Source: Singulisphaera sp. Ch08 (GTDB lineage: Bacteria; Planctomycetota; Planctomycetia; Isosphaerales; Isosphaeraceae). Taken from it: a stretch of 64,000 bases of DNA. Below, one piece after another: positions 6,092-59,260 of the stretch. The stretch is taken from positions 693,078-757,077 of the forward strand of contig NZ_CP155447.1 of the NCBI RefSeq assembly GCF_045290345.1, written 5' to 3'. Positions within the stretch are counted from its first letter, which is position 1; every line of letters starts with the position of its first letter. The notes beneath the pieces were generated by a model. The model was not told the origin of the DNA and made no database searches. It saw only the letters and a program-made list of their open reading frames with translations. The position numbers and the translations under genes are program-made.

Positions 6092-7159
6092 ATGAGAACT
6101 CGTTCGAGAACCGCGTTCACACTCATTGAATTGTTGGTCGTAATCGCAATCATCGCCGTTCTCATTGCCTTGTTGCTGCCCGCGGTGCAAGCAGCGCGTG
6201 AGGCTGCCCGGCGGTCACAGTGTGTCAACAACATGAAGCAGATTGGACTCGCGCTGCACAACTACCACTCTACGAACAATGCTTTCCCGCTCGGCGCCAC
6301 CTGGCAACCCTTCGAAACGACAGGCTGGTCATTCACCGCCACCGGCGGCTTGACCGGCGCTAGTCAAGACAACTGGTCATGCTGGAGTATCCAGGCGCAA
6401 ATGCTCCCGAGTATGGAGCAGATGGCGATCTACAACAGCATCAACTTCAACTTTTCGTGCTATCGTGGGACGGCCGGACCGGTCAACTCGACGGCGTTCA
6501 CCACGAGGATTGCCTCATTCCTCTGCCCATCCGACGGCAATGCGGGCAATACAAACACGAACAACTACCACGGCAGCATCGGAACATCGCTCTACAGCAC
6601 AAACAATGCCGACAGCACCGGCATTTTTAACTATCAGCAAAAGTACACGGTCGCCGACATCAAAGACGGCACGTCAAACACAATCGCCTTCTCCGAGGCT
6701 CTCGTGGGTGAGCGGAGCAGTGGGACGTTCGGACGAGGCAACTCGACCGGAAACGTCGCCTCGGCTGGATTTGGCACAGGGCAACCGTACGATGTCAGCG
6801 GGAGATTGAGCGACATCAAGGCTGACATCCAGGCCTGCATCGGCGCCTTCAAGTCGAGCACCTCAACGAACCCGCGGAATGACCGCGGTTTCCGATGGGG
6901 CCAAGGCGCCATGGGCTTGACGCTCTTCAATACCGTGATCACCCCCAACGGCGCCCAATTCAATGCCTGCCGAATTGGATGCTGCACCCAGGCGAGCCAC
7001 GCTCACTATCAGGTCGCGACAAGCAACCACTCCGGCGGTGTCAACGCTCTGCTCGGCGACGGCAGCGTCAAGTTCATCAAAGACTCGATCGCCTACCCGA
7101 CCTGGTGGGCCCTCGGCACCCGCGGCTTCGGCGAAGTCATCAGCGCCGACTCCTACTGA
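6092..7159 (+). CDS. DUF1559 / prepilin-type N-terminal cleavage-methylation domain protein.
   Basis: The translation starts [60 protein letters not shown] and ends HSGGVNALLGDGSVKFIKDSI...WWALGTRGFGEVISADSY. A GGGAGGG lies 6 nt upstream of the ATG. Confidence 0.9.
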   Translation: MRTRSRTAFTLIELLVVIAIIAVLIALLLPAVQAAREAARRSQCVNNMKQIGLALHNYHSTNNAFPLGATWQPFETTGWSFTATGGLTGASQDNWSCWSIQAQMLPSMEQMAIYNSINFNFSCYRGTAGPVNSTAFTTRIASFLCPSDGNAGNTNTNNYHGSIGTSLYSTNNADSTGIFNYQQKYTVADIKDGTSNTIAFSEALVGERSSGTFGRGNSTGNVASAGFGTGQPYDVSGRLSDIKADIQACIGAFKSSTSTNPRNDRGFRWGQGAMGLTLFNTVITPNGAQFNACRIGCCTQASHAHYQVATSNHSGGVNALLGDGSVKFIKDSIAYPTWWALGTRGFGEVISADSY

Positions 7160-10615: not shown

Positions 10616-10790
10616 GAGTCTGTCACAAGCAAACCGGGCCCTCTGTCCGCCCCGTAGGCCGAAATTCGCGGGAGAAACTCGTTCCCACGCTCGACGTGGG
10701 AATGCCGTCCTGGCCGCTCTGCGGCCCTACCCGCCGGGGAAGACGACGCGGAGCGTGGGAACGAGATCCCGGTATCCTTGCTGCAGTCTC
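10616..10790. repeat. REP-like repeat, family A, long variant.
   Basis: It has the same core as 1709-1910, including the extra GTGGGAATGCCGTCCTGGCCGCTCTGCGGCCCTACCCGCCGG module. Confidence 0.8.
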
Positions 10791-11695: not shown

Positions 11696-11874
11696 TTAGA
11701 GCGGTTTACGATCGCATTGCGCACGGTGGAGGAAAACGGGGACTGGCTCCCGGCCCGCTCCATGCTCGGCTTTTCCGGACGACCTGGCGGCCGGGTGCCT
11801 GTCCCCATTTTCCGCACGTGCTCCTGAGTCTTGAGACCAACCACCGTGCGCAACGCATCCGCAAACCGCTCTAA
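11696..11874. mobile_element. MITE-like element, family B, with ~33 bp terminal inverted repeats.
   Basis: The left end is TAGAGCGGTTTACGATCGCATTGCGCACGGTGG and the right end is CACCGTGCGCAACGCATCCGCAAACCGCTCTAAG, which are reverse complements. A second copy lies at 22877-23130. Confidence 0.7.
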
Positions 11875-11917: not shown

Positions 11918-12005
11918 CATGGGTGCCACGGGTTGTACTCAACCCGTGAGCCAAAAACCCGGGCAATCGTTCACGGGTTGAGTACAACCCGTGGCACCCG
12001 ACGGC
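11918..12005. repeat. Long perfect inverted repeat (hairpin, ~29 bp arms).
   Basis: GGGTGCCACGGGTTGTACTCAACCCGTGA ... TCACGGGTTGAGTACAACCCGTGGCACCC. Confidence 0.7.
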
Positions 12006-22876: not shown

Positions 22877-23130
22877 CTAGAGCGGTTTGCGGATGCGTTG
22901 CGCACGGTGGTTGGTCTCAAGACTCAGGAGCACGTGCGGAAACGGGGACTGGCTCCGGAGCGCAGCGGAGGTGCCTGTCCCCCTTTCCGCCGAGGCCGCC
23001 CGTGACGGCCCGGAAAATGGGGACAGGCACCCGGCCGCCAGGTCGTCCGGAAAAGCCGAGCATGGAGCGGGCCGGGAGCCAGTCCCCGTTTTCCTCCACC
23101 GTGCGCAATGCGATCGTAAACTGCTCTAAC
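22877..23130. mobile_element. MITE-like element, family B, copy 2, inserted inside a family-D repeat.
   Basis: Its terminal inverted repeats are CTAGAGCGGTTTGCGGATGCGTTGCGCACGGTGG ... CACCGTGCGCAATGCGATCGTAAACTGCTCTAAC. The internal segment is a palindromic rearrangement of the internal segment of the 11696 copy. Its flanks are contiguous in the uninterrupted D copy at 30541-30760. Confidence 0.7.
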
Positions 23131-23290
23131 CATTCCCGTAGGGTGGGCACGGCCCACCATCTTAAACTTCGCTTCGGCAAGGAGATAGGGATGGTGGGCC
23201 GTGCCCACCCTACGGGAAAAATCGGATTCTGGCCGCTAATCAATCATGAATCATTGATCAATTCATAACGGGTTAGGCGAAGCTTTACCC
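23131..23290. repeat. Family D palindromic repeat, 3' part. The 5' part is at 22825-22876, split by the MITE.
   Basis: It contains CCCGTAGGGTGGGCACGGCCCACCATC ... GATGGTGGGCCGTGCCCACCCTACGGG (perfect ~27 bp arms) and the tail GGCCGCTAATCAATCATGAATCATTGATCAATTCATAACGGGTTAGGCGAAGCTTTACCC. It matches 30541-30760. Confidence 0.75.
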
Positions 23291-30856: not shown

Positions 30857-33145
30857 TCAACTCGCGCCGGGCTTGGGGTTCGTCACACCGTTGGGAGTTG
30901 CCGCGGGGGGAGGGACGGCCATCGCTTCACGAGTCATCTTGTCGGCGTACTCCTCGAGCGACTTGGCCCCTTCAGCTTCGGCCAGGCCGAAGCCCGATTT
31001 CTCGGCGACCATCAGGCTGATGAGGAGCCCGAACAGGCCCTGCGCGGAATTGTCCGAGCCATGATGGGAATCGCCATTGGAGGAAGCGCCGGTGGTCCCG
31101 GACATGAAGACGCGTTGGGGGACCAACGGCTGGCTACTGTTGGCGAGTTGGTTGGCGACCTGGGTGAGCGCGTACAGCCTCGGATCGGAGAAGGACTGGA
31201 CCTTACGAAGCAGGACCGACGCTTCCGACAGGCCGATTTGGGCGATTTTCGAGGCTTCGCCCTTACCGGCAAGAGTGCGTTGCTCCGCCTCGGCCTGGGC
31301 GAGGATCACCATCTGCTCAGCCTGTTTGCGCGAGCGATCGAGTTCGGCCTGGGCCGTCACGACCATCTGCTCGGCCATTTTTTTAGCGCGGGCAAGGTCG
31401 GCCTCGGCGGCCTTGCGGGTCTTGGCCAGTTCGGCCTCTCCCTGGTTTTCGACGATCTGGATCTGCACTTTGGAGTTCGTCAGGCTCGTCTGCATGGTCG
31501 CTTGCGCCTGGGCGTCGTTGAGCGTCTGAAGGGTCTCGGCGGCGGCCCGTTGGCGCTGGTAGGTTTCGATCTGTTCGACCGAGAGCTGGCGCTGGCGCAA
31601 CTGCTCCAGCAAGGTTTCGATCTTGCCTCCCGCCTCGGCCGTATCCGGCTTGCCGATCAGGACGTCCACACACTCGATGTCGAACTGGCCGAACCGGGCC
31701 GAGAGGGTTTCTCGCGCCTCGCGCTGAATGTCGTCGCGGTCCTGCAAGAGCTGGAGCATGGTGCGCTTGTGGGCCACGTCGCGAAAGAAGGCGGAAAGCA
31801 TCGGGTCAAGGGTTTGCGTGATCAACTTCTTGACGTCGCCGAACCGCTGGATGACGTTCGGGGCCTTCTGATAGTCGATATGGACGACGACCGAGAGCGG
31901 CAACGTCGGCTCGTACGCATCCTTGGTGACGAGGTCGATCGAGCGCAGACTCTCGTCGTAGCGGTGGGTCTCGGTCCGGCCGGTGACCCAGTGCAAGACG
32001 AAGTTCGTCGTCGGGACCATCACAATACTGCCGGCATACGGGTTGAACCCGTACTTGCCAGGGCCGAGCGGCCGCTCCAAGACTCCGCGTTCCCCCTCGG
32101 CGACCCGCTCGCCGTGACGAAACCCGGCGCCCGAGACGTCCTGGCCGGTGCGCCCGTAATAGCTCACCACCACGCCCACAAAGCCGATCGGCACAACCGT
32201 CTTGGGTACCACCTCGACCGAGGCGAACCAGCGATTGATGAAATAGGTGCCGTCGGTCAGCGGCACGTACTGCCGCCCTCGATGGCCTCCCGCGGCGAGG
32301 AACGCCTCAGGGTCCTGGTAGTTATTGTGAAAATGCTTATCTTCGCGCCGAGTGCCGACCGCAGGCGCGATGATCTCGCCAGGGCCAAGGCTCGGTCCGT
32401 CCTGCACCGTCACAATCCCGAGACTATCGACGGTGATCTGCCGCTCGGGATGGATCGGGTCAGGCGCCAGGATTGGCGCACCGATCACGACGGGGTTGAA
32501 CCCATTCGACGCCTTCAGCTCGTTCTGCCAGCCGACGATCGTCTCCAGCTCGCGTCGCCCTTGAAATTCCAGCCGATAGGCCGCATCTTCGGTGATCACC
32601 ACGAACAAGGCGAGGTTGATCGCATAAACCCCCTCGCGAAGGATCATCCGCTGCCGACCGCGCTGGCCCAGGGGAAGGGCTTCCTCGCCCGGCGCCGTGA
32701 CCACATCGCCGATCAGGAACGCGCGTGCATCCTGAAAGTTGTTGCACCCCGCAACTCGCCCCAAAGTCTGGCTTGGCTCCAGAGGCTCGCCGTCACGAGC
32801 GTAGACATAGCCGATCTTCCCTTGAGGCACCGTCACCAGATTGACCCGATGGATCCGGTACTGCCACGCCCACAAGCCAAAATGCACGCCACCCCGAAGG
32901 AGGTCGGCCTGAAAACCCGCCTCACCCATCAGCGCCATCATCCGCCCCTCAGGGACCGATCCCTTGGGCGACCACAGCGTTTCCACGATCCCCACGCGGT
33001 TGTTCGGGATGTATCTCATCCCCGAAAACACCACCGTGGCGAACACGACCCCAAAGAACCCGACCACCAAGAACACGAACCAGTCCCCAGGAAAGAGTTG
33101 GGCCCAAAGCATTGGCCTCAGCCACATCCCTATTGCCGCGAACAT
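30857..33145 (-). CDS. Large flotillin-like protein with tandem SPFH/band-7 domains and a coiled-coil EA-rich region. It has an N-terminal transmembrane segment.
   Basis: The SPFH block reads ...RFGDVKKLITQTLDPMLSAFFRDVAHKRTMLQLLQDRDDIQREARETLSARFGQFDIECVDVLIG... and is followed by the flotillin-type coiled coil ...AELAKTRKAAEADLARAKKMAEQMVVTAQAELDRSRKQAEQ.... The transmembrane segment is MFAAIGMWLRPMLWAQLFPGDWFVFLVVGFFGVVFATVVF. An alternative start lies at 33196. The plus-strand ORF 31061..33280 is a shadow. Confidence 0.7.
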   Translation of the reverse strand: MFAAIGMWLRPMLWAQLFPGDWFVFLVVGFFGVVFATVVFSGMRYIPNNRVGIVETLWSPKGSVPEGRMMALMGEAGFQADLLRGGVHFGLWAWQYRIHRVNLVTVPQGKIGYVYARDGEPLEPSQTLGRVAGCNNFQDARAFLIGDVVTAPGEEALPLGQRGRQRMILREGVYAINLALFVVITEDAAYRLEFQGRRELETIVGWQNELKASNGFNPVVIGAPILAPDPIHPERQITVDSLGIVTVQDGPSLGPGEIIAPAVGTRREDKHFHNNYQDPEAFLAAGGHRGRQYVPLTDGTYFINRWFASVEVVPKTVVPIGFVGVVVSYYGRTGQDVSGAGFRHGERVAEGERGVLERPLGPGKYGFNPYAGSIVMVPTTNFVLHWVTGRTETHRYDESLRSIDLVTKDAYEPTLPLSVVVHIDYQKAPNVIQRFGDVKKLITQTLDPMLSAFFRDVAHKRTMLQLLQDRDDIQREARETLSARFGQFDIECVDVLIGKPDTAEAGGKIETLLEQLRQRQLSVEQIETYQRQRAAAETLQTLNDAQAQATMQTSLTNSKVQIQIVENQGEAELAKTRKAAEADLARAKKMAEQMVVTAQAELDRSRKQAEQMVILAQAEAEQRTLAGKGEASKIAQIGLSEASVLLRKVQSFSDPRLYALTQVANQLANSSQPLVPQRVFMSGTTGASSNGDSHHGSDNSAQGLFGLLISLMVAEKSGFGLAEAEGAKSLEEYADKMTREAMAVPPPAATPNGVTNPKPGAS

Positions 33146-33403
33146 GTTGCGATCTCGTCTGGCCCCGGCGTCATCGACGGGAAGATGCTGCCGCAAAGTT
33201 TTCCCAGTCCCCGCATCACCCCTAACTGCAACACGAAGGACTTGAGCCCGTTGGGGAGCATTCGTCCGACATCCCCATGATATTTACGAATATTTCCCGA
33301 ATAAGTGATCTTAGGTTTTTAGGAGGGACACCGCGGGTTGATCTGAAACCGAGGCGTCCCACCGGACCAAATCGCCAAATGACAACCGCGAAGGGTCCTT
33401 GGC

Positions 33404-40564: not shown

Positions 40565-41944
40565 TCAGTTTTGCGGCCAGAGTGAATTGATGAGCTCCAC
40601 GGTGCGATCCACGAGGACTTGCCCCCCTTCCGGTCCGACAAGATTGCTCTCGGGGATGGCACTATAACCTCCGCCATGGACGGCGTGCTCGGTCGGCAGG
40701 TAGGAGCCTGGCCCAGCCAGCTGAATGAGGAAGGTTTGGATCGCTGGACTGCGGGCCTTCATCTGGATCCCGTACTCGGTGAACAGTTCGAAGACGTTCG
40801 TGGCGATGGCCACGTCGCCGAGCCGGATGACGTGGAGTTCCATGAGGAACGGGTCGATGGGGCCGGCCTTTTGCTGTTCGAAGCGGTCCACCACTTTCTG
40901 GTGCCAGCCCACCGTGCGCTGATTTTTCGGGTCTTTGGAGAGTTTTTCGACATTCGCCCTGGCCGCGGCGGCTTCCGACTCGGTGATAATTCGAGGGGGG
41001 AGCTTGATCGTCTCGACTTTATGGACCAGGGGGACGCCGGCGTTCTGTTCTTTACGGGCCCCCTCGTAGGCCTCATCCCAGGCCGCGACGATCCGTCGTG
41101 ACAACTCTTGCAGGCGGGTCAGGCCGCGGAGTGTTCGCATCCGTTCCTCGGCGAGTTTCCGATACATCAGGTGCGGCGACTGATCGCCCGCCGCGCCGGT
41201 CCAGGCCAGAACCAGCAGATCCTTGCCATGTTTCGCTCGCAAGGATTCGCGGACTTCGTGCCAGAAGTCGGCGGTCACAACCGAGAGTGATTCAACCTCC
41301 TGGGCCGGGCAGGCGATATTGATCGCCGTTGCGAGCAGTTTTCCTTCCGGATTCCAGAAGAAGAGGACTTCGACACCTTGATCTTCCGACCCTTCGATGC
41401 CCCGAAAGTCGGCCCGATTCGTGAGGCCATACATTTGGGCGTGGCCATCGGCATAGATCGCTCGCCGATTCTGGGCCACCACCGCATGCCCCAGCCCCCA
41501 GCCCGCGCGTGCTGGTTGGCGTGATTCCCAGGCCTTCACGGCCGCGTCGACGACCTGGCTCGCGAGAAACTCCGCGTACTCGGCCGGTTGCATCACGCCA
41601 TCCTTGGGGATGGCGTACTGCCCTTCCTTCATGACGGGCGCGGTGTGCGTGTGCGTGGCGTTGAGCACCAGTTTCTGACTATCGAGGTCGGGGAGCCGTT
41701 CCTTGACTCGCCGACGAACCTGTTCAAAGACGGCCGCGTCAATCGAGACCAGATCACAAGAGACCAGGACCGCCTGGTCGAGAACCTTGTCGCCATCCCT
41801 GGATTCCAAGGCCAGGGCCGTCGCCGTCACCGGACTCTCAACGTCCCGGGCGATCCGGGTCCGCATCTGCCCCGCAGCGCCACCGGTCGATCGGGTGTGA
41901 TGCTGACGGTCGCCCCTCCAACACGGAGTTCGGCAGACTGGCAT
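40565..41944 (-). CDS. Hypothetical hydrolase resembling neutral/alkaline ceramidase N-terminal-domain proteins. Its signal peptide and first strand lie in a different frame (41827..42039), so it may be a frameshifted gene.
   Basis: The main frame reads ...TATALALESRDGDKVLDQAVLVSCDLVSID...LNATHTHTAPV.... The adjacent frame encodes MLIANLSLPSFFARTVAAVVLVSSVTVGGG...LRVGGATVSITPDRPVAL, a typical family N-terminus. Confidence 0.4.
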   Translation of the reverse strand: MPVCRTPCWRGDRQHHTRSTGGAAGQMRTRIARDVESPVTATALALESRDGDKVLDQAVLVSCDLVSIDAAVFEQVRRRVKERLPDLDSQKLVLNATHTHTAPVMKEGQYAIPKDGVMQPAEYAEFLASQVVDAAVKAWESRQPARAGWGLGHAVVAQNRRAIYADGHAQMYGLTNRADFRGIEGSEDQGVEVLFFWNPEGKLLATAINIACPAQEVESLSVVTADFWHEVRESLRAKHGKDLLVLAWTGAAGDQSPHLMYRKLAEERMRTLRGLTRLQELSRRIVAAWDEAYEGARKEQNAGVPLVHKVETIKLPPRIITESEAAAARANVEKLSKDPKNQRTVGWHQKVVDRFEQQKAGPIDPFLMELHVIRLGDVAIATNVFELFTEYGIQMKARSPAIQTFLIQLAGPGSYLPTEHAVHGGGYSAIPESNLVGPEGGQVLVDRTVELINSLWPQN

Positions 41945-42153
41945 TCACCACCTCCCCCGACCGTAACGCTGGAAACCAGCACGACGGCGGCGACAGTCCG
42001 GGCGAAAAACGATGGCAGACTCAGATTCGCAATCAACATTCATGAGCCCTCACGAAGATAACTCTTCAGAACATCATTGAAAGTTTTCGAGATGAGACTG
42101 AGCGAGCCCAGCCAGGCCAAGCCCGCTCGCCGGGAGGCCTCTCCACAAGAGGT

Positions 42154-42480
42154 TCATGCCGGCTTGGCGGGCATGCTTCCTTCATCGGTTGGGAGCTTGG
42201 TCTTCACCGCGGCGGTGGGGCTGTGGCCGTTGGCGGCCACTTTTTCGGAGTCGGCGGCGGTGTCGACCATCTTGCCGAAGAAGTCGGGCATCTTGACGCC
42301 GCCGATATTCTCCATGATCTGGAGCACGGGGGGGAGTGTCTTGGCCATATTCTGGAGGAAACCGGCGGTGGCGCCCGTGCCGTTGGAGCCACCGTTCTCC
42401 CAGACGATGACCTTGTCGAACTTGATGTTCGAGATCGCCTGCGAGAGCGTTCGGAAGCGGAATGGTGGCCAGGCACTTAA
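42154..42480 (-). pseudogene. Duplicated 3' fragment of the flotillin gene (C-terminal ~100 codons plus stop region).
   Basis: The DNA at 42165-42475 is near-identical to 44785-45095. It encodes ...AAQAISNIKFDKVIVWENGGSNGTGATAGFLQNMAKTLPPVLQIMENIGGVKMPDFFGKMVDTAADSEKVAANGHSPTA, then a tail AVKTKLPTDEGSMPAKPA* that differs from the intact gene's tail. Confidence 0.75.
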
Positions 42481-42586
42481 AGAAGGCAAAGCGAGGAACC
42501 TGGACAATTCGTCGAGGTCAGCAGCCGACCATCCATTTTCGCTGAAACTCCCCGAGGCCCCAATTGAAGTGCCTGGCCACTCAATT
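42468..42586. repeat. E-family MITE-like repeat, copy 1 (~120 bp, 14 bp terminal inverted repeats).
   Basis: The sequence is AATGGTGGCCAGGCACTTAAAGAAGG...CCATCCATTTTCGCTGAAACTCCCCGAGGCCCCAATTGAAGTGCCTGGCCACTCAAT. The ends GTGGCCAGGCACTT and AAGTGCCTGGCCAC are reverse complements. Confidence 0.8.
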
Positions 42587-42708
42587 CGCTCCTCTTCTTG
42601 AAGGTGCAACGAATGGCAAGGGGATTCGCGGAAACCCACCGGGGAATGACCTCTTGGCCCTCCTCACATCTTCGGTACTCAACGGCTCGCCAGGAAGACT
42701 GCTCTGCA

Positions 42709-43131
42709 TCACCCCTGTGAAGAGGTTCTCCCACTCGACCGGCTCGATTCTTCTCTCGGGCTAGCCTTTGCTGGTCGAGTCGAGCTCGCAGATCCGTCGG
42801 AAGCCCGCTTCGGCTTCGTCGCCGCCTCGCCGATCGGCAGGAACCTGACCTCGACACGTTGTCCCAGCGCGGCCGCAACGCGCCGGAGCATCGAGAGCGA
42901 GTGCCCATCGTAGTCCGCTTGCTCAATCCTTGAGATCACCGAGGCTTGGGTGCCAACCTTTTGAGCGAGTGCACGGGTCGAGAGCCCGGCTTCAGTACGC
43001 AGTCGATTCAGCTCGACTCCGATTTCCAAATCGGCACACGTCCTATCGAACGACGCGGCCCGCTCGGGGTCACCACCGATGTACCCGTCGATCAGGGCTT
43101 GCAGGCCTTTGGACTTTGCTCGCGATGGCAT
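42709..43131 (-). CDS. HTH XRE-family antitoxin (HigA-like).
   Basis: The translation reads MPSRAKSKGLQALIDGY...LNRLRTEAGLSTRALAQKVGTQASVISRIEQADYDGHSLSMLRRVAAALGQRVEVRF (helix-turn-helix). The start codon lies 4 nt after the toxin stop. Confidence 0.7.
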   Translation of the reverse strand: MPSRAKSKGLQALIDGYIGGDPERAASFDRTCADLEIGVELNRLRTEAGLSTRALAQKVGTQASVISRIEQADYDGHSLSMLRRVAAALGQRVEVRFLPIGEAATKPKRASDGSASSTRPAKASPREESSRSSGRTSSQG

Positions 43132-43135
43132 CGGG

Positions 43136-43507
43136 TTACTCCTCCGGTTGGAACGTGTGCCGCTCGGGATCGGTGATAAACTTCGCGACACGGGCTTTGG
43201 CCAGAGCGATTTCCTTGGGTGGGATGATTCGTTCCTTGGCGAAACCGTGGGTCACGACGACAGCTTCCTGCCCGTGGAAGGCATAAAGTAATCGGAGGTT
43301 CACCCGACCGGATTTGACCCGCAACTCATAAATATCGTCACCTAAGTTTTCGACATACGGCCGGCGCAGTTCGTGACCATGATTGCCAAGAATGACCAAG
43401 GCCGCGAGGCAACGCTCTTGCGATTTCCGATCGAGAGAGTTCAGCCACAACCACAAGGGAACCGAGCCATCTTCCTCCTGATAGATTCTGACTTCGGTTT
43501 GCGGCAT
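43136..43507 (-). CDS. HigB-like / RelE-ParE superfamily toxin (phage Gp49-like killer protein family).
   Basis: The translation starts MPQTEVRIYQEEDGSVPLWLWLNSL, with the family pattern ...GHELRRPYVENLGDDIYELRVKSGRVNLRLLYAFHGQEAVVVTHGFAKE.... The toxin lies upstream of the antitoxin, as in higBA. Confidence 0.7.
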   Translation of the reverse strand: MPQTEVRIYQEEDGSVPLWLWLNSLDRKSQERCLAALVILGNHGHELRRPYVENLGDDIYELRVKSGRVNLRLLYAFHGQEAVVVTHGFAKERIIPPKEIALAKARVAKFITDPERHTFQPEE

Positions 43508-43613
43508 CGGCCCGATTCCCCAACTCCTTCTTTCAACTCACAAATTGTACGCAATATTGCGATCAAGCCAAGGAACCCGGGGGCCATTTCTTCTTTGCTA
43601 CTGCGAACCATGC

Positions 43614-43740
43614 GGAATAGTGGCCAGGCACTTAAAGAAGGTAAAGTGGGAAACCTGCATCAATCATCAAGGGCGGCAACCGACCATCCATTTTCGCTGA
43701 AACTCCCCGAGGCCCCAATTGAAGTGCCTGGCCACTCAAT
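43614..43740. repeat. E-family MITE-like repeat, copy 2.
   Basis: The sequence is AATAGTGGCCAGGCACTTAAAGAAGGTAAAGTGGGAAACCTGCATCAATCATCAAGGGCGGCAACCGACCATCCATTTTCGCTGAAACTCCCCGAGGCCCCAATTGAAGTGCCTGGCCACTCAAT. Confidence 0.8.
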
Positions 43741-43892
43741 ACCGCCCCGGTGCACCTCGCCAGGCGAGCCTGGCAGGCCTGCAAACCTTCTCGGAGGCGG
43801 TCGTCATCGTGAGCCCTGTTCGGGCTTGGCAATCCCAACGAGAAGCGAGAAGTGACCTATCCTGAGGAAACTCAAACAAGAGAGATCGCACA

Positions 43893-44414
43893 ATGGCCGG
43901 TCCGGTTCGCAAGATGTCCGAGGTCATGCTGAAAATGGCGGAACACATCCTCCGTAAGTCCGCCGAGGACACCTCGGACGAGGCGGCACATGCCGCGCTC
44001 TTCTTCGCCAACATCGCCTGGAACGAGTGCGTCGGGATCGACAATCCCCGGAATCACCACCGCAAAATCTGGGAAACGTTCGAAGCCTCGAACCCCTCAT
44101 TCTGGAACGAGTTGAAGTCAAACAACACGGACGCCCTGATCGACGATCTCGTCCGTTACAAACAGGCCCACTACCCCGAGGATCGACGCCGTATTCTCAT
44201 ATGCGGCATGATGCCAAACGGGAACATTCGGGTCGAATGGTTGCCCACGGCCGCTCCCGGGGTCGATCCCAAGTGGGAATTGCAGTTGTACGGGCTGGTG
44301 AGGACCGGCGACCAACCGGGGGCCATCCGCTTCCTGCGAAAGACGCGGGGCCTGTCCCGCAACGAGGCGATGAAGCAAGTGGCGGCAGTCGCCACCGGGC
44401 TGGGGATCAAGTAG
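43893..44414 (+). CDS. Hypothetical protein (173 aa), cargo ORF of the micro-island.
   Basis: It is an intact ORF between E2 and E3 with no recognisable motifs. The translation reads MAGPVRKMSEVMLKMAEHILRKSAEDTSDEAAHAALFFANIAWNECVGIDNP.... Confidence 0.4.
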   Translation: MAGPVRKMSEVMLKMAEHILRKSAEDTSDEAAHAALFFANIAWNECVGIDNPRNHHRKIWETFEASNPSFWNELKSNNTDALIDDLVRYKQAHYPEDRRRILICGMMPNGNIRVEWLPTAAPGVDPKWELQLYGLVRTGDQPGAIRFLRKTRGLSRNEAMKQVAAVATGLGIK

Positions 44415-44592
44415 AATCAGGCATTCAGGACCGTGAGCGCGGAAGGGAACGGCGGTGGGACGACGGCGACAGCGACGCGGCAAATCCAAGGGCAGGTTCT
44501 TCCTGGAACGCGGCGGGGTCGAACTGCAACTCTATACCCTGAATATGTTCTTGCTCAGCGGCCTGTTCAGCGAAAGCTACGCCAGGAGCCGG

Positions 44593-44749
44593 AATGGTGG
44601 CCAGGCACCTAAAGAAGGTAAGAGGGAAACCTGGACAAGTCGTCAAGGCCGGCAGCCGACTATCCATTTTCGCTGAATCTCCCAGAGACCCCAATTGAAG
44701 TGCCTGGCCACTCAATCTGAATCCCAATTGAAGTGCCTGGCCACTCAAT
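44593..44749. repeat. E-family repeat, copy 3, with a tandem duplication of the terminal 26-mer.
   Basis: The sequence GGAATGGTGGCCAGGCACCTAAAGAAGG... ends ...CCCAATTGAAGTGCCTGGCCACTCAATCTGAATCCCAATTGAAGTGCCTGGCCACTCAAT. It abuts the flotillin stop at 44768. Confidence 0.8.
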
Positions 44750-44767
44750 CGAGTCTCTCCCGATGGT

Positions 44768-46465
44768 TCAGGACGGCTTGGCGGGCCGGCTCCCCGCATC
44801 GGCGGCGAACTTGGGTTTGGAGTCGGGGGCCGGGACCGGGGCGCCAGCCCTCGCGGTGGGGCTGTGGCCGTTGGCGGCCACTTTCTCGGAGTCGGCGGCG
44901 GTGTCGACCATCTTGCCGAAGAAGTCGGGCATCTTGACGCCGCCGATATTCTCCATGATCTGGAGCACGGGGGGGAGTGTCTTGGCCATATTCTGGAGGA
45001 AACCGGCGGTGGCGCCCGTGCCGTTGGAGCCACCGTTCTCCCAGACGATGACCTTGTCGAACTTGATGTTCGAGATCGCCTGCGCGGCGGTCTGCGAGAG
45101 CGTGTCGATGTGTTCGAGCATCAGCAGTTGGAAGGCTTCCTGCGAGCCGCCGCAAGCGGAGACGATCTCACGGAGTCCCTCTGCCTTCTTGGCAAGGATC
45201 TCGTAATTGCCACGGGCCTCGGCTTCGAGCTTGGCGAAGATCGCCTTGGCGTCGCCCTCGGCCTCGATCCGCCGGCGCTCGGCCGCGGCCTCGGCTTCGA
45301 CGATCACCTGCGCCTTCTTGGCCTTGGCGACGGCTTCGAGTAGGGCCCGCTGTTCGGCCTCGATCTTCTCGGCCTGGGCCAGCGCGGCCTTGGTCTGGGC
45401 ACGGAAGGCGGCCTCCTCGACGCCGGCATCAGCCTCGCGCCGCTTGGTCTCGCCGATCTGGAACGCCTCGGCCTGCTTGAAGGCGAGGTCGGCATTCGAG
45501 GCGGCGATCTTCGCCTTGGCCTCGTTCTCACCGCTGATCGCCTGGGCGTCCGCTTCGGCGAGTTTGATCCGCATCGCGCGCTCGGCGAGCTTAACGCTGG
45601 CCTGCTGCTCGAATGCGGCCGTCTCAACGCCGATCTTTTCTTCCTTCAGCAACTCGGCGACCTGGACGGCCCGCTCACGCTCGGCCCCCTTGGTCCCGAT
45701 CTCGCGGAGCTTCTCGGCGTTCGCGACCTCGATGGCCTGCAACTGCTTCGCCTTGGCCACGCCGATCGACCCATATTTCTGCTGCTCGGCGACATCGATC
45801 TCGGCCTGATGAATCGCGGTGCTGGCCGCCTTACGGCCGATCGCCTCGATGTACCCCGAGTCGTCGGTCAAGTCGGTGATGTTGACGTTGATCAGCACCA
45901 GCCCGATCTTCCGCAGTTCCAGCTCCAGCGAGTTCTGGATGTTCTCCAGGAACTTCTCACGATCGCGGTTGATCTCGTCGATCGACATCGACGCGATCAC
46001 CTGGCGAAGCTGACCGAAGATCAGGTCGGCCGCCTGGGCGCTGACCTGATCGCGACTCAGGTTCAAGAGCCGGATCGCGGCGTTCTGCATCACCTCGGGC
46101 TCGGTGCCAATGGCGACGGTAAAGACGCTCGGAACATTCACCCGGATATTCTCGACCGAAAGCGCCCCACGCAGCGGGATCTCGATCTGGATCGGCTCCA
46201 GCGCCAGGTAGTCATAGTCCTGGAAAATCGGAAAGACGAGCGTTCCACCGCCGTGAACGCAAGTGGCCGACTTCGCCCCTGTCCCCACGCCCCACTTGAC
46301 CAGCACCTTGTTGGAGGGACAACGCTTGTAGCAACGCAGAGCCGTGGTGACGACCCCGAAGACGGCCACCGCGAACAACGCGGCGCCGACCACCGGCCAC
46401 CAACCTGAGCTATGCGTCTGATTGACCAGATTTAACTCAGCAACGACAAACGAGAGCATAATCAT
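44768..46465 (-). CDS. Flotillin (FloT/YuaG-like SPFH/band-7 protein).
   Basis: It has an N-terminal transmembrane segment (MIMLSFVVAELNLV...GWWPVVGAALFAVAVFGVV), an SPFH block (...LVFPIFQDYDYLALEPIQIEIPLRGALSVENIRVNVPSVFTVAIG...) and long EA-rich coiled coils. The plus-strand ORFs 45207..45809 and 45809..46408 are shadows. Confidence 0.85.
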   Translation of the reverse strand: MIMLSFVVAELNLVNQTHSSGWWPVVGAALFAVAVFGVVTTALRCYKRCPSNKVLVKWGVGTGAKSATCVHGGGTLVFPIFQDYDYLALEPIQIEIPLRGALSVENIRVNVPSVFTVAIGTEPEVMQNAAIRLLNLSRDQVSAQAADLIFGQLRQVIASMSIDEINRDREKFLENIQNSLELELRKIGLVLINVNITDLTDDSGYIEAIGRKAASTAIHQAEIDVAEQQKYGSIGVAKAKQLQAIEVANAEKLREIGTKGAERERAVQVAELLKEEKIGVETAAFEQQASVKLAERAMRIKLAEADAQAISGENEAKAKIAASNADLAFKQAEAFQIGETKRREADAGVEEAAFRAQTKAALAQAEKIEAEQRALLEAVAKAKKAQVIVEAEAAAERRRIEAEGDAKAIFAKLEAEARGNYEILAKKAEGLREIVSACGGSQEAFQLLMLEHIDTLSQTAAQAISNIKFDKVIVWENGGSNGTGATAGFLQNMAKTLPPVLQIMENIGGVKMPDFFGKMVDTAADSEKVAANGHSPTARAGAPVPAPDSKPKFAADAGSRPAKPS

Positions 46466-46498
46466 AACAACTTCACTCGTTATAAAATTCGATCGGGC

Positions 46499-47140
46499 TT
46501 ATTCAGGAAAAGGGGCCGGCTTGAAGATCGCATCCTGCGGGGCGACCACCTCCACAATCTGTTCGTCGATGACCCGGCTGACGACGACCGGATCGCCCGT
46601 GCGAAGCGAGGGGCCGGGTGTGCGAGCGAGAACCTCGATCGTTCGCCCTTGAATCGGCAGCGTGATCTTCCCCTCGCCGCCGCCATTGGCCGGGATCCGA
46701 AGGTAGACCGTCGCCCCCAGCCCGACCGATTGCGCGATCCGCACCGTGCCATCGGAATTGAGTTTACGAAGCAACCGCAGGGCATACCCCAGTAGCGAGA
46801 CGGTCACGACGCCGGTCGCCGTGCCGACGAGCACCGCCACGGTCGCGTTCGGCTTCGCCTCCAGCGCCGTGAGCCCGCCGATCCCAAAGAAGGCCAGGAA
46901 CGAGACGATCGCCTGAAAGGTGAAGATCCGCCCAAGTTCCAGGTGGTGGCCGTGGTCGTACCCACCCTCGATTGAGTCGGCAGAAGCGTCTTCGGGCAAA
47001 TCTGCGTCGAACTCGGCGTCCCCCAGGTCGCCGATGATGCCGCCGAGACCTTCGGACCCGAGCCCCACCAACGACAGAGCCAGGCGCAAGAGAAGAATGG
47101 TCCCGCCGATCGTCGCGCAGATCAGAAAGAACTGATACAT
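46499..47140 (-). CDS. NfeD-like (YuaF/YqiJ) membrane protein, flotillin partner.
   Basis: The translation starts MYQFFLICATIGGTILLLRLALSLVG (TM), followed by a C-terminal OB-fold-like region ...VYLRIPANGGGEGKITLPIQGRTIEVLARTPGPSLRTGDPVVVSRVIDEQIVEVV. It lies 33 bp upstream of the flotillin start, the classic nfeD-floT operon. A GGGAGGG lies 5 nt upstream of the ATG at 47138-47140. Confidence 0.75.
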   Translation of the reverse strand: MYQFFLICATIGGTILLLRLALSLVGLGSEGLGGIIGDLGDAEFDADLPEDASADSIEGGYDHGHHLELGRIFTFQAIVSFLAFFGIGGLTALEAKPNATVAVLVGTATGVVTVSLLGYALRLLRKLNSDGTVRIAQSVGLGATVYLRIPANGGGEGKITLPIQGRTIEVLARTPGPSLRTGDPVVVSRVIDEQIVEVVAPQDAIFKPAPFPE

Positions 47141-59012: not shown

Positions 59013-59152
59013 GCAGACGTTCACGGATTTCCTTATGCTTCTTCTACGATCCGTGACCGAGCGCGAACCTCGATAGATTTCCGGCTCGGTCGAATCCGTC
59101 GTACGGCCGGCCCGGCCGTATCCCCCTCGGTCCAGGGCCATTCCTCGGACTC

Positions 59153-59260
59153 GCGCCGACCCCGAGGGAATTACGGCCGGGCCGGCCGTGCTACTGAAAA
59201 CCAACCTGTGGCGGAAACCGCAAGAATCATCAGTGCTTTCGCTCCGTCGCGGATCGTTGA
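59153..59260. repeat. Interspersed repeat, family C.
   Basis: The sequence is GACCCCGAGGGAATTACGGCCGGGCCGGCCGTGCTACTGAAAACCAACCTGTGGCGGAAACCGCAAGAATCATCAGTGCTTTCGCTCCGTCGCGGATCGTTG. An inverted partial copy CGTACGGCCGGCCCGGCCGTA lies just upstream at 59103-59122. Confidence 0.75.

What the first reader, a model, noticed from the sequence alone, without database searches (positions are those of the whole stretch)
42468..44749. E-family ~125 bp elements with 14 bp terminal inverted repeats separating the island's cargo genes.
Three copies (42468-42586, 43614-43740, 44593-44749) begin (A)ATGGTGGCCAGGCACTTAAAGAAGG and end CCAATTGAAGTGCCTGGCCACTCAAT. The ends GTGGCCAGGCACTT and AAGTGCCTGGCCAC are inverted repeats, which is MITE-like. 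The arrangement is repeat-[TA]-repeat-[ORF]-repeat, a cassette-like pattern. The third copy carries a tandem duplication of its terminal 26-mer, consistent with slippage or recombination at the element end. I could not match the elements to integron attC cores.
Basis: seen in the sequence. Interest (0 to 1): 0.6.

Follow-up and report, generated by a model that had tools for sequence, protein, structure and literature searches.

The report
Small palindromic repeats framing accessory genes
Three and a bit copies of a rare 127-base hairpin-forming repeat separate a toxin-antitoxin pair and an orphan gene in a 2.6-kb insert beside a flotillin gene of the planctomycete Singulisphaera sp. Ch08; it is a new family of an ordinary kind of selfish repeat, not an integron.

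Summary
Three full copies of a ~127-nt element (42459-42585, 43614-43740, 44591-44716) and a 33-nt right-end remnant (44717-44749) lie in one orientation. Each has perfect 14-nt terminal inverted repeats, GTGGCCAGGCACTT. No other copy exists in the 64-kb window.

The copies frame a RelE/HigB-like toxin plus XRE antitoxin operon and a conserved 173-aa orphan gene. The block sits between a complete flotillin gene and a ~300-nt duplicate of that gene's 3' end.

The window comes from Singulisphaera sp. Ch08. The only other genome hit is a tandem pair in Singulisphaera sp. GP187, ~78% identical and in an unrelated locus. Peat metagenomes hold a few 99- and 127-nt elements with the same arms but different interiors.

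- Integron attC features are absent.
- There are no target-site duplications.
- No transposase or recombinase lies within about 15 kb.
- Rfam gives no match.
- A suspected link to RAYT-type transposases did not hold up.

Best reading: a low-copy, non-autonomous palindromic repeat (MITE/REPIN-like, no TSD) carried in, or inserted into, the intergenic spacers of an imported accessory segment.

Unexplained: partial copies reiterated at the element's ends, seen in four independent lineages.

Modest interest; a new member of a known kind.

The parts
42459..42585 (+). E1, a full 127-nt element. Left terminus GGAATGGTGGCCAGGCACTT, right terminus AAGTGCCTGGCCACTCAAT.
   Evidence: nhmmer E=1e-40; predicted hairpin -29.9 kcal/mol, z=-4.2
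43614..43740 (+). E2, a full element. Its right 61 nt are identical to E1; 13 of the 14 differences from E1 fall in columns 29-66.
44591..44716 (+). E3, a full element of 126 nt. One change in the left arm gives a C:A mismatch on the + strand, or G:T on the - strand.
44717..44749 (+). E4 remnant: CTGAAT plus the 27-nt right terminus. It is a 5'-truncated tandem copy abutting E3.
   Evidence: D3; nhmmer 44722-44749
42709..43131 (-). XRE-type HTH antitoxin, 140 aa.
   Evidence: Pfam HTH_31 1.9e-9, HTH_37, HTH_3; called as a gene in the Logan contig
43136..43507 (-). RelE/ParE-superfamily (HigB-like, Gp49/DUF891) toxin, 123 aa.
   Evidence: Pfam PF05973 5.5e-19; about 45% identity to annotated RelE/ParE toxins on cyanobacterial plasmids
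43544..43571 (-). Promoter-like site of the TA operon, overlapping the palindrome 43545-43566 (a likely operator).
   Evidence: (I24); consensus match only
43893..44414 (+). Orphan gene of 173 aa, identical to V5E97_02700 of Singulisphaera sp. Ch08. It belongs to a conserved planctomycete family of 172-aa proteins of unknown function.
   Evidence: no family; 803 homologues; no fold match
42154..42453 (-). X': duplicate of the last ~100 codons of the flotillin gene. It has its own, different C-terminal tail, stop codon and native-looking 3' flank. It lacks 12 nt (TAAQ) present in the full gene and in all orthologues.
   Evidence: (D1, D10)
44768..46465 (-). X: complete flotillin (SPFH/Band 7) gene, 565 aa. 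Its stop codon lies 18 nt from the E4 remnant.
   Evidence: Pfam Band_7 4.3e-26; orthologues 71-92% identical
44853..45084 (.). Right copy of the 232-nt near-identical (231/232) direct repeat. The left copy is 42212-42443.
   Evidence: (D1)

Best explanation
E is a small, low-copy family of non-coding ~127-nt palindromic elements of the Singulisphaera lineage. It is a non-autonomous, MITE/REPIN-like selfish repeat.

What matters in the element:
- Its functional parts are its ends: 14-nt perfect inverted arms plus asymmetric outer termini, GGAATG on the left and TCAAT on the right.
- Its centre drifts freely.

How it probably moves (inference):
- It is probably moved or copied in trans by an enzyme encoded elsewhere in the genome.
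- It makes no target-site duplications, all copies point the same way, and it tends to sit head-to-tail with itself.
- The most likely class of enzyme is therefore a single-strand, HUH-type or other site-specific one, rather than a DDE transposase.

The locus:
- Three full copies and one remnant occupy the intergenic spacers of a 2.6-kb accessory segment. The segment holds a RelE/HigB-like toxin with an XRE antitoxin, under its own promoter, and a conserved orphan gene.
- The segment, with a foreign-looking flotillin tail, was spliced into the 3' end of the flotillin gene. Splicing used homologous recombination in the gene plus an illegitimate joint at the left end of E1 (inference).
- That left the recipient's own 3' end behind as a ~300-nt fragment.

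Shown versus inferred:
- Shown: the anatomy, the rarity, the absence of integron features and the non-syntenic homologue.
- Inferred: mobility in trans, the enzyme class and the order of events at the locus.
For: Anatomy:
- Three aligned copies with perfect arms, far above chance.
- They fold as hairpins better than shuffles, z from -2.2 to -4.2.
- One stem pair covaries between species: U-A in E1 and E2, C-G in both GP187 copies, with E3 intermediate.
- Ends conserved, centre free: 13 of 14 E1/E2 differences lie in 38 central columns, and the right 61 nt are identical. My binomial estimate for this is about 1e-6.
- Non-coding: a 1-nt indel between copies, and stops in two of three minus-strand frames of E1.

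Mobility or horizontal spread:
- A homologous tandem pair, 75-78% identical, lies in Singulisphaera sp. GP187 between unrelated genes. No flanking-gene homologue exists in the window.
- Flotillin orthologues at 80-92% identity carry no E downstream.
- The same arms with other interiors occur in about 5 distinct peat or soil metagenome loci.

Other points:
- No TSD at any copy.
- No Rfam family.
- Locus history: the 232-nt repeat is 231/232 identical, but the adjoining tails are 78% identical with indels. X' keeps the native-looking 3' flank, while the complete gene's tail runs into E4 after 18 shared nt.
- The same genome and its relatives are rich in other palindromic repeat families. One has arms GGGGACAGGCAC, which differs from the E arm at 2 of 12 positions and fits the GGGGWSAS motif reported for TIRs flanking RAYT-like genes (PMC3733652).
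Against: - No transposase or recombinase lies within about 15 kb, and no RAYT-like ORF in the window.
- Close homologues of the RayT-like gene that neighbours one metagenome element are not flanked by the arms.
- Copy number is very low and the copies are clustered, unlike typical MITEs or REPINs.
- The genome-wide count in Ch08 could not be obtained.
- No empty site or transposition event was observed.
- Ends that are conserved around a variable centre, same-orientation copies and one complete gene unit between each pair are also what a cassette array would look like.
- Near-identity of the 232-nt repeat next to 78%-identical tails needs an extra assumption: gene conversion, or a very close donor.
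Confidence: 0.5

Rival explanations
1. E copies are recombination sites that bound gene cassettes. This would be an attC-independent, integron-like or pdif-like module system. An unlinked site-specific recombinase would insert or excise single gene units (TA, orphan gene) at E|E junctions of a tandem E array.
For: - All copies share one orientation, and one complete transcription unit lies between each pair.
- E|E junctions without cargo exist: E3/E4 here and the tandem pair in GP187.
- Ends are conserved around a variable centre, as in attC sites.
- TA modules are typical cassette cargo, from established knowledge of chromosomal integrons and Acinetobacter pdif modules.
- An 80% flotillin orthologue also has a TA pair framed by hairpin repeats right after the gene.
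Against: - No attC R''/R' cores and no bulged stem.
- No integrase or recombinase in the window.
- Homologues of the orphan gene elsewhere sit in ordinary gene arrays without E.
- Module ends share no motif.
- The hairpins framing the TA pair in L014 belong to a family present in many of the intergenic spaces there, with 9 exact arm matches in 21 kb. Framing there is therefore expected by chance.
Confidence: 0.15
2. E acts at the RNA level, as a structured 3'-UTR or intergenic element. It would be an mRNA stabiliser, insulator or terminator in the manner of REP or ERIC sequences, or a small RNA gene. Its repetition would reflect selection for that role.
For: - A stable long hairpin is predicted on both strands.
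- One compensatory stem change, and a G:U-compatible variant on the minus strand.
- E3/E4 lies 18 nt after the flotillin stop. Orthologues have a terminator hairpin or another hairpin repeat at that position.
Against: - No Rfam match down to E=1.
- No U-tract, and no terminator-like call at any E.
- E2 lies between divergent promoters, not at a 3' end.
- The internal hairpin that is perfect in GP187 is broken in all three Ch08 copies.
- Inverted arms would covary equally under a protein-binding (TIR) constraint.
Confidence: 0.1
3. E is an inert local repeat. It would be an old tandem duplication of an intergenic palindrome that was later separated by insertions of unrelated DNA, with no mobility and no function.
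For: - Copies occur only at this locus in 64 kb.
- Tandem abutting copies are seen here and in GP187.
- 11-13% divergence between copies shows they are not recent.
Against: - Divergence is strongly non-uniform. The arms are perfect and the right 61 nt of E1 and E2 are identical, which needs constraint or conversion.
- A homologue lies in a different genomic context in another species.
- The same arms are attached to different interiors in metagenomes.
Confidence: 0.1
4. E is a non-autonomous rolling-circle or HUH-type element. Its missed termination (end bypass) captures the DNA between head-to-tail copies, as with ISCR/IS91 or Helitrons.
For: - No TSD, same orientation and asymmetric termini.
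- 3'-anchored, 5'-truncated reiterations occur in four lineages.
- IS200-like or RayT-like HUH ORFs lie within 500 nt of the element in 2 of about 5 metagenome loci.
Against: - No HUH gene in the window.
- Relatives of the neighbouring RayT-like gene lack the arms.
- One reiteration includes flanking bases, and GP187 has one at the other terminus. Plain slippage at a palindrome therefore suffices.
Confidence: 0.1

Closest known systems
Bacterial MITEs (e.g. Correia/NEMIS, bcr1, Chunjie; review PMC3184786)
   Same: Small (about 100-130 nt), non-coding, with terminal inverted repeats. They fold into a long hairpin, are intergenic and are patchy between related genomes.
   Different: No target-site duplications. 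No identifiable parent IS. Very low and clustered copy number. All copies in one orientation.
REPINs / REP doublets with RAYT transposases, and the 'TIR repeats / TIRtrons' of Di Nocera et al. 2013 (PMC3733652)
   Same: Two inverted arms form a hairpin, with no TSD. Copies often occur as dimers or clusters. The E arm GTGGCCAG resembles the reported TIR motif GGGGWSAS at 6 of 8 positions. A sister family in the same genome, GGGGACAGGCACC, fits it fully. Planctomycetes are reported to hold many tyrosine-transposase genes with flanking repeats.
   Different: The arm is not itself a palindromic REP with a GTAG or CGTC tag. The family is not abundant. No RAYT or TIRYT gene flanked by the arms was found. 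The one RayT-like neighbour is not specifically associated.
Integron attC sites / CALIN arrays (e.g. Vibrio VCRs of 123-126 bp)
   Same: Similar length. Conserved ends around a variable centre. Same-orientation sites separate single gene units, including a TA module.
   Different: No R''/R' core sites, no unpaired central spacer or extrahelical bases, and no integrase. The cargo genes face both ways, and the TA operon has its own promoter-like site.
MITE-flanked composite units (integron mobilization units, NFM2-MITE; PMC3184786)
   Same: Cargo genes are bracketed by two copies of a small TIR element.
   Different: Those composites carry a TSD outside the pair and near-identical copies. Here there is no TSD and the copies differ by 11-13%.
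REP-associated variable TA locus in E. coli (ccdO157 between folA and apaH; PMC3184786)
   Same: A chromosomal TA module lies in a variable intergenic spot that also holds palindromic repeats. Relatives have other inserts at the same spot.
   Different: A different repeat type and organism. Here the insertion also duplicated the 3' end of the neighbouring gene.

Membership tests
MITE | Terminal inverted repeats on a short (<~400 bp) element without a transposase gene | tested here: met
   14-nt perfect arms, 17-18 nt with one mismatch; element of 127 nt; no conserved ORF
MITE | Target-site duplications flanking each copy | tested here: not met
   Flanks of E1, E2, E3/E4 and the GP187 pair share no direct repeat. 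One 99-nt metagenome relative has a possible 7/8 match, AGGCATTC/AGGCATCC.
MITE | Many dispersed copies per genome | tested here: inconclusive
   Only the clustered copies in 64 kb. One locus in GP187, and none with intact arms in other species genomes. The full Ch08 genome was not searchable.
MITE | TIRs matching those of an autonomous IS in the same or a related genome | not testable with these tools
   No transposase in the window. Collection scans were exhausted.
Integron attC / CALIN | R'' (RYYYAAC) and R' (GTTRRRY) core sites at the ends | tested here: not met
   No such pair at 40-135 nt spacing on either strand of 42000-45200, and neither motif near any E end
Integron attC / CALIN | Bulged hairpin: R and L boxes separated by an unpaired spacer, with extrahelical bases | tested here: not met
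   The terminal stem is 14 contiguous Watson-Crick pairs
Integron attC / CALIN | IntI tyrosine recombinase nearby (complete integron) | tested here: not met
   No recombinase domain in the 20 largest neighbouring ORFs, 28.9-58.1 kb. CALINs lack one, so this alone does not exclude membership.
REPIN/RAYT system | Unit is a 20-40-nt imperfect palindrome (REP) with a conserved tag; two inverted units make the REPIN | tested here: not met
   Inverted arms are present, but the arm GTGGCCAGGCAC is not self-complementary and has no GTAG or CGTC tag
REPIN/RAYT system | A single-copy RAYT gene flanked by the repeats | tested here: inconclusive
   None in the window or in the 8-kb GP187 locus. RayT-like or IS200-like ORFs lie beside the elements in L003 and L009. 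Homologues 92-94% identical to the L003 ORF lack the arms.
REPIN/RAYT system | Tens to hundreds of copies per genome | tested here: inconclusive
   As for MITE copy number. The evidence available points to low copy number.
Known structured RNA (Rfam) | Match to a curated covariance model | tested here: not met
   0 matches at E<=1 over 41000-47000
Xer/pdif modules | 28-nt XerC-spacer-XerD sites in alternating orientation around modules | tested here: not met
   By inspection, the arms are 14 nt and 88 nt apart, all elements are direct, and there is no 11-6-11 architecture. The comparison with the dif consensus comes from memory only.

The most novel reading that the evidence does not exclude
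The arms GTGGCCAGGCAC mark the ends of an undescribed planctomycete gene-capture system. This would be either an attC-independent cassette array or a non-autonomous rolling-circle/HUH element.

In this reading, head-to-tail copies pick up the DNA between them. The 3'-anchored, 5'-truncated terminal reiterations seen in four lineages would be the footprint of its polar copying mechanism.
Probability: 0.12. Interest if true: 0.7.

Novelty: new member of a known kind. Interest (0 to 1): 0.35.

Why it matters
If the main reading is right, this adds one more family to the poorly catalogued repertoire of palindromic repeats in the very large Singulisphaera genomes. It also documents a small, well-resolved case of accessory genes (a TA module and an orphan gene) being spliced into the 3' end of a housekeeping gene, with duplication of that end.

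Two features could repay a specialist's attention:
- The enzyme class is unidentified: the elements have no TSD, one orientation and asymmetric ends.
- Partial copies are reiterated at the element termini in independent lineages.

Either feature could point to a mobilisation or repair mechanism at long palindromes that has not been described for bacteria.

Tried and rejected
1. Integron attC. Rejected: no core sites, no bulged stem and no integrase.

2. RAYT/REPIN link.
- It was suggested by HUH-type ORFs next to the elements in L003 and L009.
- Two homologues 92-94% identical to the L003 ORF, on long contigs, have neither the arms nor any TIR.
- The window has no such ORF.
- Left as unproven.

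3. Known RNA family: none.

4. Promoter or terminator function of E: no consensus site falls in any E.

5. Cargo travelling with E: homologues of the orphan gene in six loci have no E-like sequence. Exact-protein look-ups of the toxin and the orphan gene return only the same organism's reads.

6. Plasmid or phage origin.
- No nucleotide match of the island, and no protein match of the orphan gene, in PLSDB.
- No arm pair in viral contigs.
- The toxin has only about 45%-identical plasmid homologues in cyanobacteria.

7. Function of the orphan gene: no Pfam or NCBIfam hit, an AlphaFold model at pLDDT 69, and no significant PDB fold match.

8. E downstream of flotillin in relatives: absent in five orthologous loci.

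9. L011, from the metagenome scan, looks like a chance match: its interior is unlike the other elements.
Full report
**Observation.** The region holds three full copies of one element.
- E1 is 42459-42585, E2 is 43614-43740 and E3 is 44591-44716.
- Gapped pairwise identity is 87-89%.
- Each copy starts GGAAT(G/A)GTGGCCAGGCAC and ends GTGCCTGGCCACTCAAT.
- The 14-mer arm, or its complement, occurs 7 times at 2 mismatches or fewer. All 7 are in these copies, against 0.43 expected; 0 of 100 shuffles reach 7.
- nhmmer with a profile of the family finds nothing else in the 64-kb window.
- Directly after E3 comes a 33-nt piece (44717-44749), made of CTGAAT plus the last 27 nt of the element. CTGAAT is E-internal sequence, so this is the 5'-truncated, internally deleted remnant of a fourth, tandem copy (E4) rather than a slipped 26-mer.
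- Unitigs assembled independently from run SRR29376112 reproduce 42556-43709 and 43711-44882 at 100%. They end where the repeats share k-mers, so the arrangement is not an assembly artefact of the window.

**Anatomy of the element.**
- As single strands, all copies fold into a long hairpin closed by the arms, better than shuffled controls (z from -2.2 to -4.2).
- The terminal stem is 14 uninterrupted pairs.
- The outer termini are asymmetric: GGAATG on the left and TCAAT on the right.
- A degenerate third, inverted copy of the left terminus lies inside the element, clearest in GP187.
- Between E1 and E2, 13 of 14 differences fall in 38 central columns, and the right 61 nt are identical. By my binomial estimate this is about 1e-6 under uniform divergence. 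The ends are therefore constrained or homogenised, and the centre is free.
- A 1-nt indel and in-frame stops rule out a conserved reading frame.
- Rfam gives no match at E<=1.

**The locus.** On the + strand the order is as follows.
- A ~300-nt duplicate of the 3' end of a flotillin gene (X', 42154-42453, minus strand).
- E1.
- An XRE-type antitoxin (42709-43131) and a Gp49/HigB-like RelE-superfamily toxin (43136-43507). Both are on the minus strand, with a promoter-like site over a palindrome at 43544-43571.
- E2.
- A 173-aa orphan gene (43893-44414, plus strand).
- E3 and E4.
- 18 nt of spacer, then the stop codon of the complete flotillin gene X (44768-46465, minus strand).
- The NfeD-like partner gene of X.

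The two flotillin ends compare as follows.
- They are 231/232 identical over 42212-42443 and 44853-45084.
- The adjoining C-terminal tails are only about 78% identical, with indels.
- X' lacks 12 nt (TAAQ) that X and all orthologues have.
- Similarity runs about 18 nt past both stop codons.
- X' continues into what looks like the native 3' flank, whereas X's tail runs into E4.

No recombinase or transposase domain occurs in the 20 main ORFs between 28.9 and 58.1 kb. Those are ordinary planctomycete genes (DUF1501, PSCyt/PSD, TPR protease and others).

**Source and distribution.**
- The orphan protein is 100% identical to V5E97_02700 of Singulisphaera sp. Ch08. That genome has a 10.77-Mb chromosome from a hybrid assembly. 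Its description does not mention repeats, mobile elements or transposases (PMC11279305).
- A scan of one genome per species for GTGGCCAGGCAC-N75-105-GTGCCTGGCCAC found one locus only. It is a tandem pair in Singulisphaera sp. GP187, a full copy followed by a copy lacking its first 10 nt.
- The GP187 copies are 75-78% identical to E along their whole length.
- They lie between unrelated genes, none of which has a homologue in the window.
- S. acidiphila and all other species genomes in the collection lack an intact arm pair.
- JGI metagenomes gave ten contigs representing about five distinct loci, from peat and soil. One (L011) looks like chance.
- These are 99-nt and 127-nt elements with the same TGGCCAGGCAC arms but other interiors. 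The 127-nt ones are weakly alignable to E.
- Viral contigs and PLSDB plasmids gave nothing.
- Flotillin orthologues at 92, 87, 87, 85 and 80% identity have no E downstream.
- That flank is variable in them too. One has a group-II-intron-type RT after the terminator. Another has an unrelated HigB/HTH pair framed by hairpin repeats of a different, locally abundant family.

**Family tests.**

Integron attC:
- No RYYYAAC...GTTRRRY pair occurs on either strand of the island.
- There is no bulged stem and no integrase.
- E is not an attC site.

MITE:
- Size, TIRs and lack of coding fit.
- No copy has a target-site duplication.
- No parent IS is known.
- Copies are few and clustered.

REPIN/RAYT:
- IS200-like or RayT-like HUH ORFs lie within 500 nt of the element in two metagenome loci. 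L009 scores Pfam Y1_Tnp 23.7 bits. Two homologues of the L003 ORF are named RayT by a source.
- Two homologues 92-94% identical to the L003 ORF, on long contigs, have neither the arms nor any TIR.
- L003 also carries an ORF that looks IS110-like by my reading of its N-terminus; Pfam gave no hit for it. L003 is therefore probably a nest of mobile DNA.
- The window has no such ORF.
- The arm is not a self-complementary REP.

Di Nocera et al. (PMC3733652) describe RAYT-like genes flanked by long TIRs with a GGGGWSAS motif, and note many such genes and repeats in a planctomycete.
- The window and its relatives carry a family with arms GGGGACAGGCACC that fits this motif.
- The E arm GTGGCCAGGCAC differs from it at two positions.
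- This is a resemblance, not a demonstrated link.

**Recurrent oddity.** In the E-like orientation, a full element is often followed directly by fragments. These all end at the outer right terminus and start at variable inner points.
- E3/E4 in this window.
- The GP187 pair.
- Five fragments of 12-18 nt in L009, plus one after a second, truncated copy.
- Three fragments in L006, L010 and L012, which are three samples of one locus.
- One of these includes 4 nt of flank, and GP187 also has a 9-nt reiteration at the left terminus. Plain slippage at the base of a long palindrome is therefore enough to explain them.
- A polar copying or self-targeted insertion mechanism is not excluded.

**How the locus most likely arose (inference).**
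- The tail next to E4 differs strongly from the tail of X', while both share the first ~18 nt after the stop. So the block E1...E4 plus that tail probably came from the flotillin locus of a related donor.
- A homologous crossover inside flotillin, plus an illegitimate joint at the left end of E1, would give exactly the observed structure: native 3' fragment, island, complete gene. The incoming DNA could have been a circle integrated Campbell-style or a linear fragment with one homologous anchor.
- The near-identity of the 232-nt repeat then needs later gene conversion or a very close donor.
- On this view the E copies may simply be the donor's intergenic repeats. Alternatively, cargo may have been inserted at E|E junctions of a tandem array. 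The data do not decide between these.

**Verdict.**
- The most probable identity is a new, rare family of non-autonomous palindromic repeats of the MITE/REPIN kind. They have no TSD and an unknown mobilising enzyme, and they frame a small imported accessory segment.
- It is neither an integron nor a known RNA.
- The cassette-system and rolling-circle readings remain open at low probability.
- The decisive computation, a search of the complete Ch08, GP187 and S. acidiphila genomes for further copies and for a gene flanked by the arms, could not be run.

Noticed in passing
window 42143-42453 and 44757-45099: A ~300-nt direct duplication of the flotillin 3' end brackets the whole E block. It is 231/232 identical over 232 nt, but the C-terminal tails are only about 78% identical, with indels. 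The left copy has a 12-nt in-frame deletion.
   Followed up: yes
window 42154-42639 (-): An open reading frame of 161 aa (GC3 0.75) runs through the whole of E1 into the flotillin fragment. Whether it is expressed is unknown.
   Followed up: no
window 22878-23128 and 11696-11874; L014 (9 exact arm hits in 21 kb); L013 1388-1428: Composite palindromic repeats with an outer TIR TAGAGCGGTTT... enclosing hairpins GGGGACTGGCTCC/GGTGCCTGTCCCC. The hairpins keep two T:T mismatches in every copy. The family is shared with relatives. Its arm fits the GGGGWSAS motif of TIRs reported around RAYT-like genes, and it differs from the E arm at 2 of 12 positions.
   Followed up: partly
window 23133-23218, 11921-11999, 1766-1890, 10678-10765, 59095-59197: Further hairpin repeat families. 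Two are perfect 29-bp stems, and one of those is also present in L014 at 6126-6212. Another is a CTCGTTCCCACGC family. The genome is rich in palindromic intergenic repeats.
   Followed up: no
L014 11665-12990; L013 3925-6000: The 3' flank of the flotillin gene is a variable spot in relatives. One has an unrelated HigB_toxin/HTH pair framed by hairpin repeats. Another has a reverse-transcriptase gene (group-II-intron type) just after the terminator hairpin.
   Followed up: partly
L009 969-1166; L006 11207-11290 (= L010, L012); L001 3793-4060: Partial copies of the element terminus are reiterated next to full copies, up to five in a row. All are anchored at the outer end and truncated inward.
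   Followed up: partly
L003 1-1439: Within 1.4 kb lie an ORF that looks IS110-like by eye (no Pfam hit), a 127-nt element with the same arms, and a RayT-like ORF. The element abuts the conserved 5' flank of the RayT-like gene. This looks like a nest of mobile DNA.
   Followed up: partly
window 43893-44414; L019-L024: The orphan gene belongs to a family of about 800 proteins, nearly all of 172 aa and 60-77% identical. It has no Pfam or NCBIfam model and no PDB fold match. Elsewhere it sits in arrays with SEC-C-motif, DUF6398 and PRiA4_ORF3 genes.
   Followed up: partly
window 43544-43571: A sigma-70-like promoter match for the TA operon overlaps the palindrome TTGTACGCAATATTGCGATCAA, a likely antitoxin operator.
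   Followed up: no
window 30857-33196 (-): A second, larger SPFH/Band 7 protein (779 aa) lies 12 kb upstream. It is unrelated in sequence to the duplicated flotillin end.
   Followed up: no
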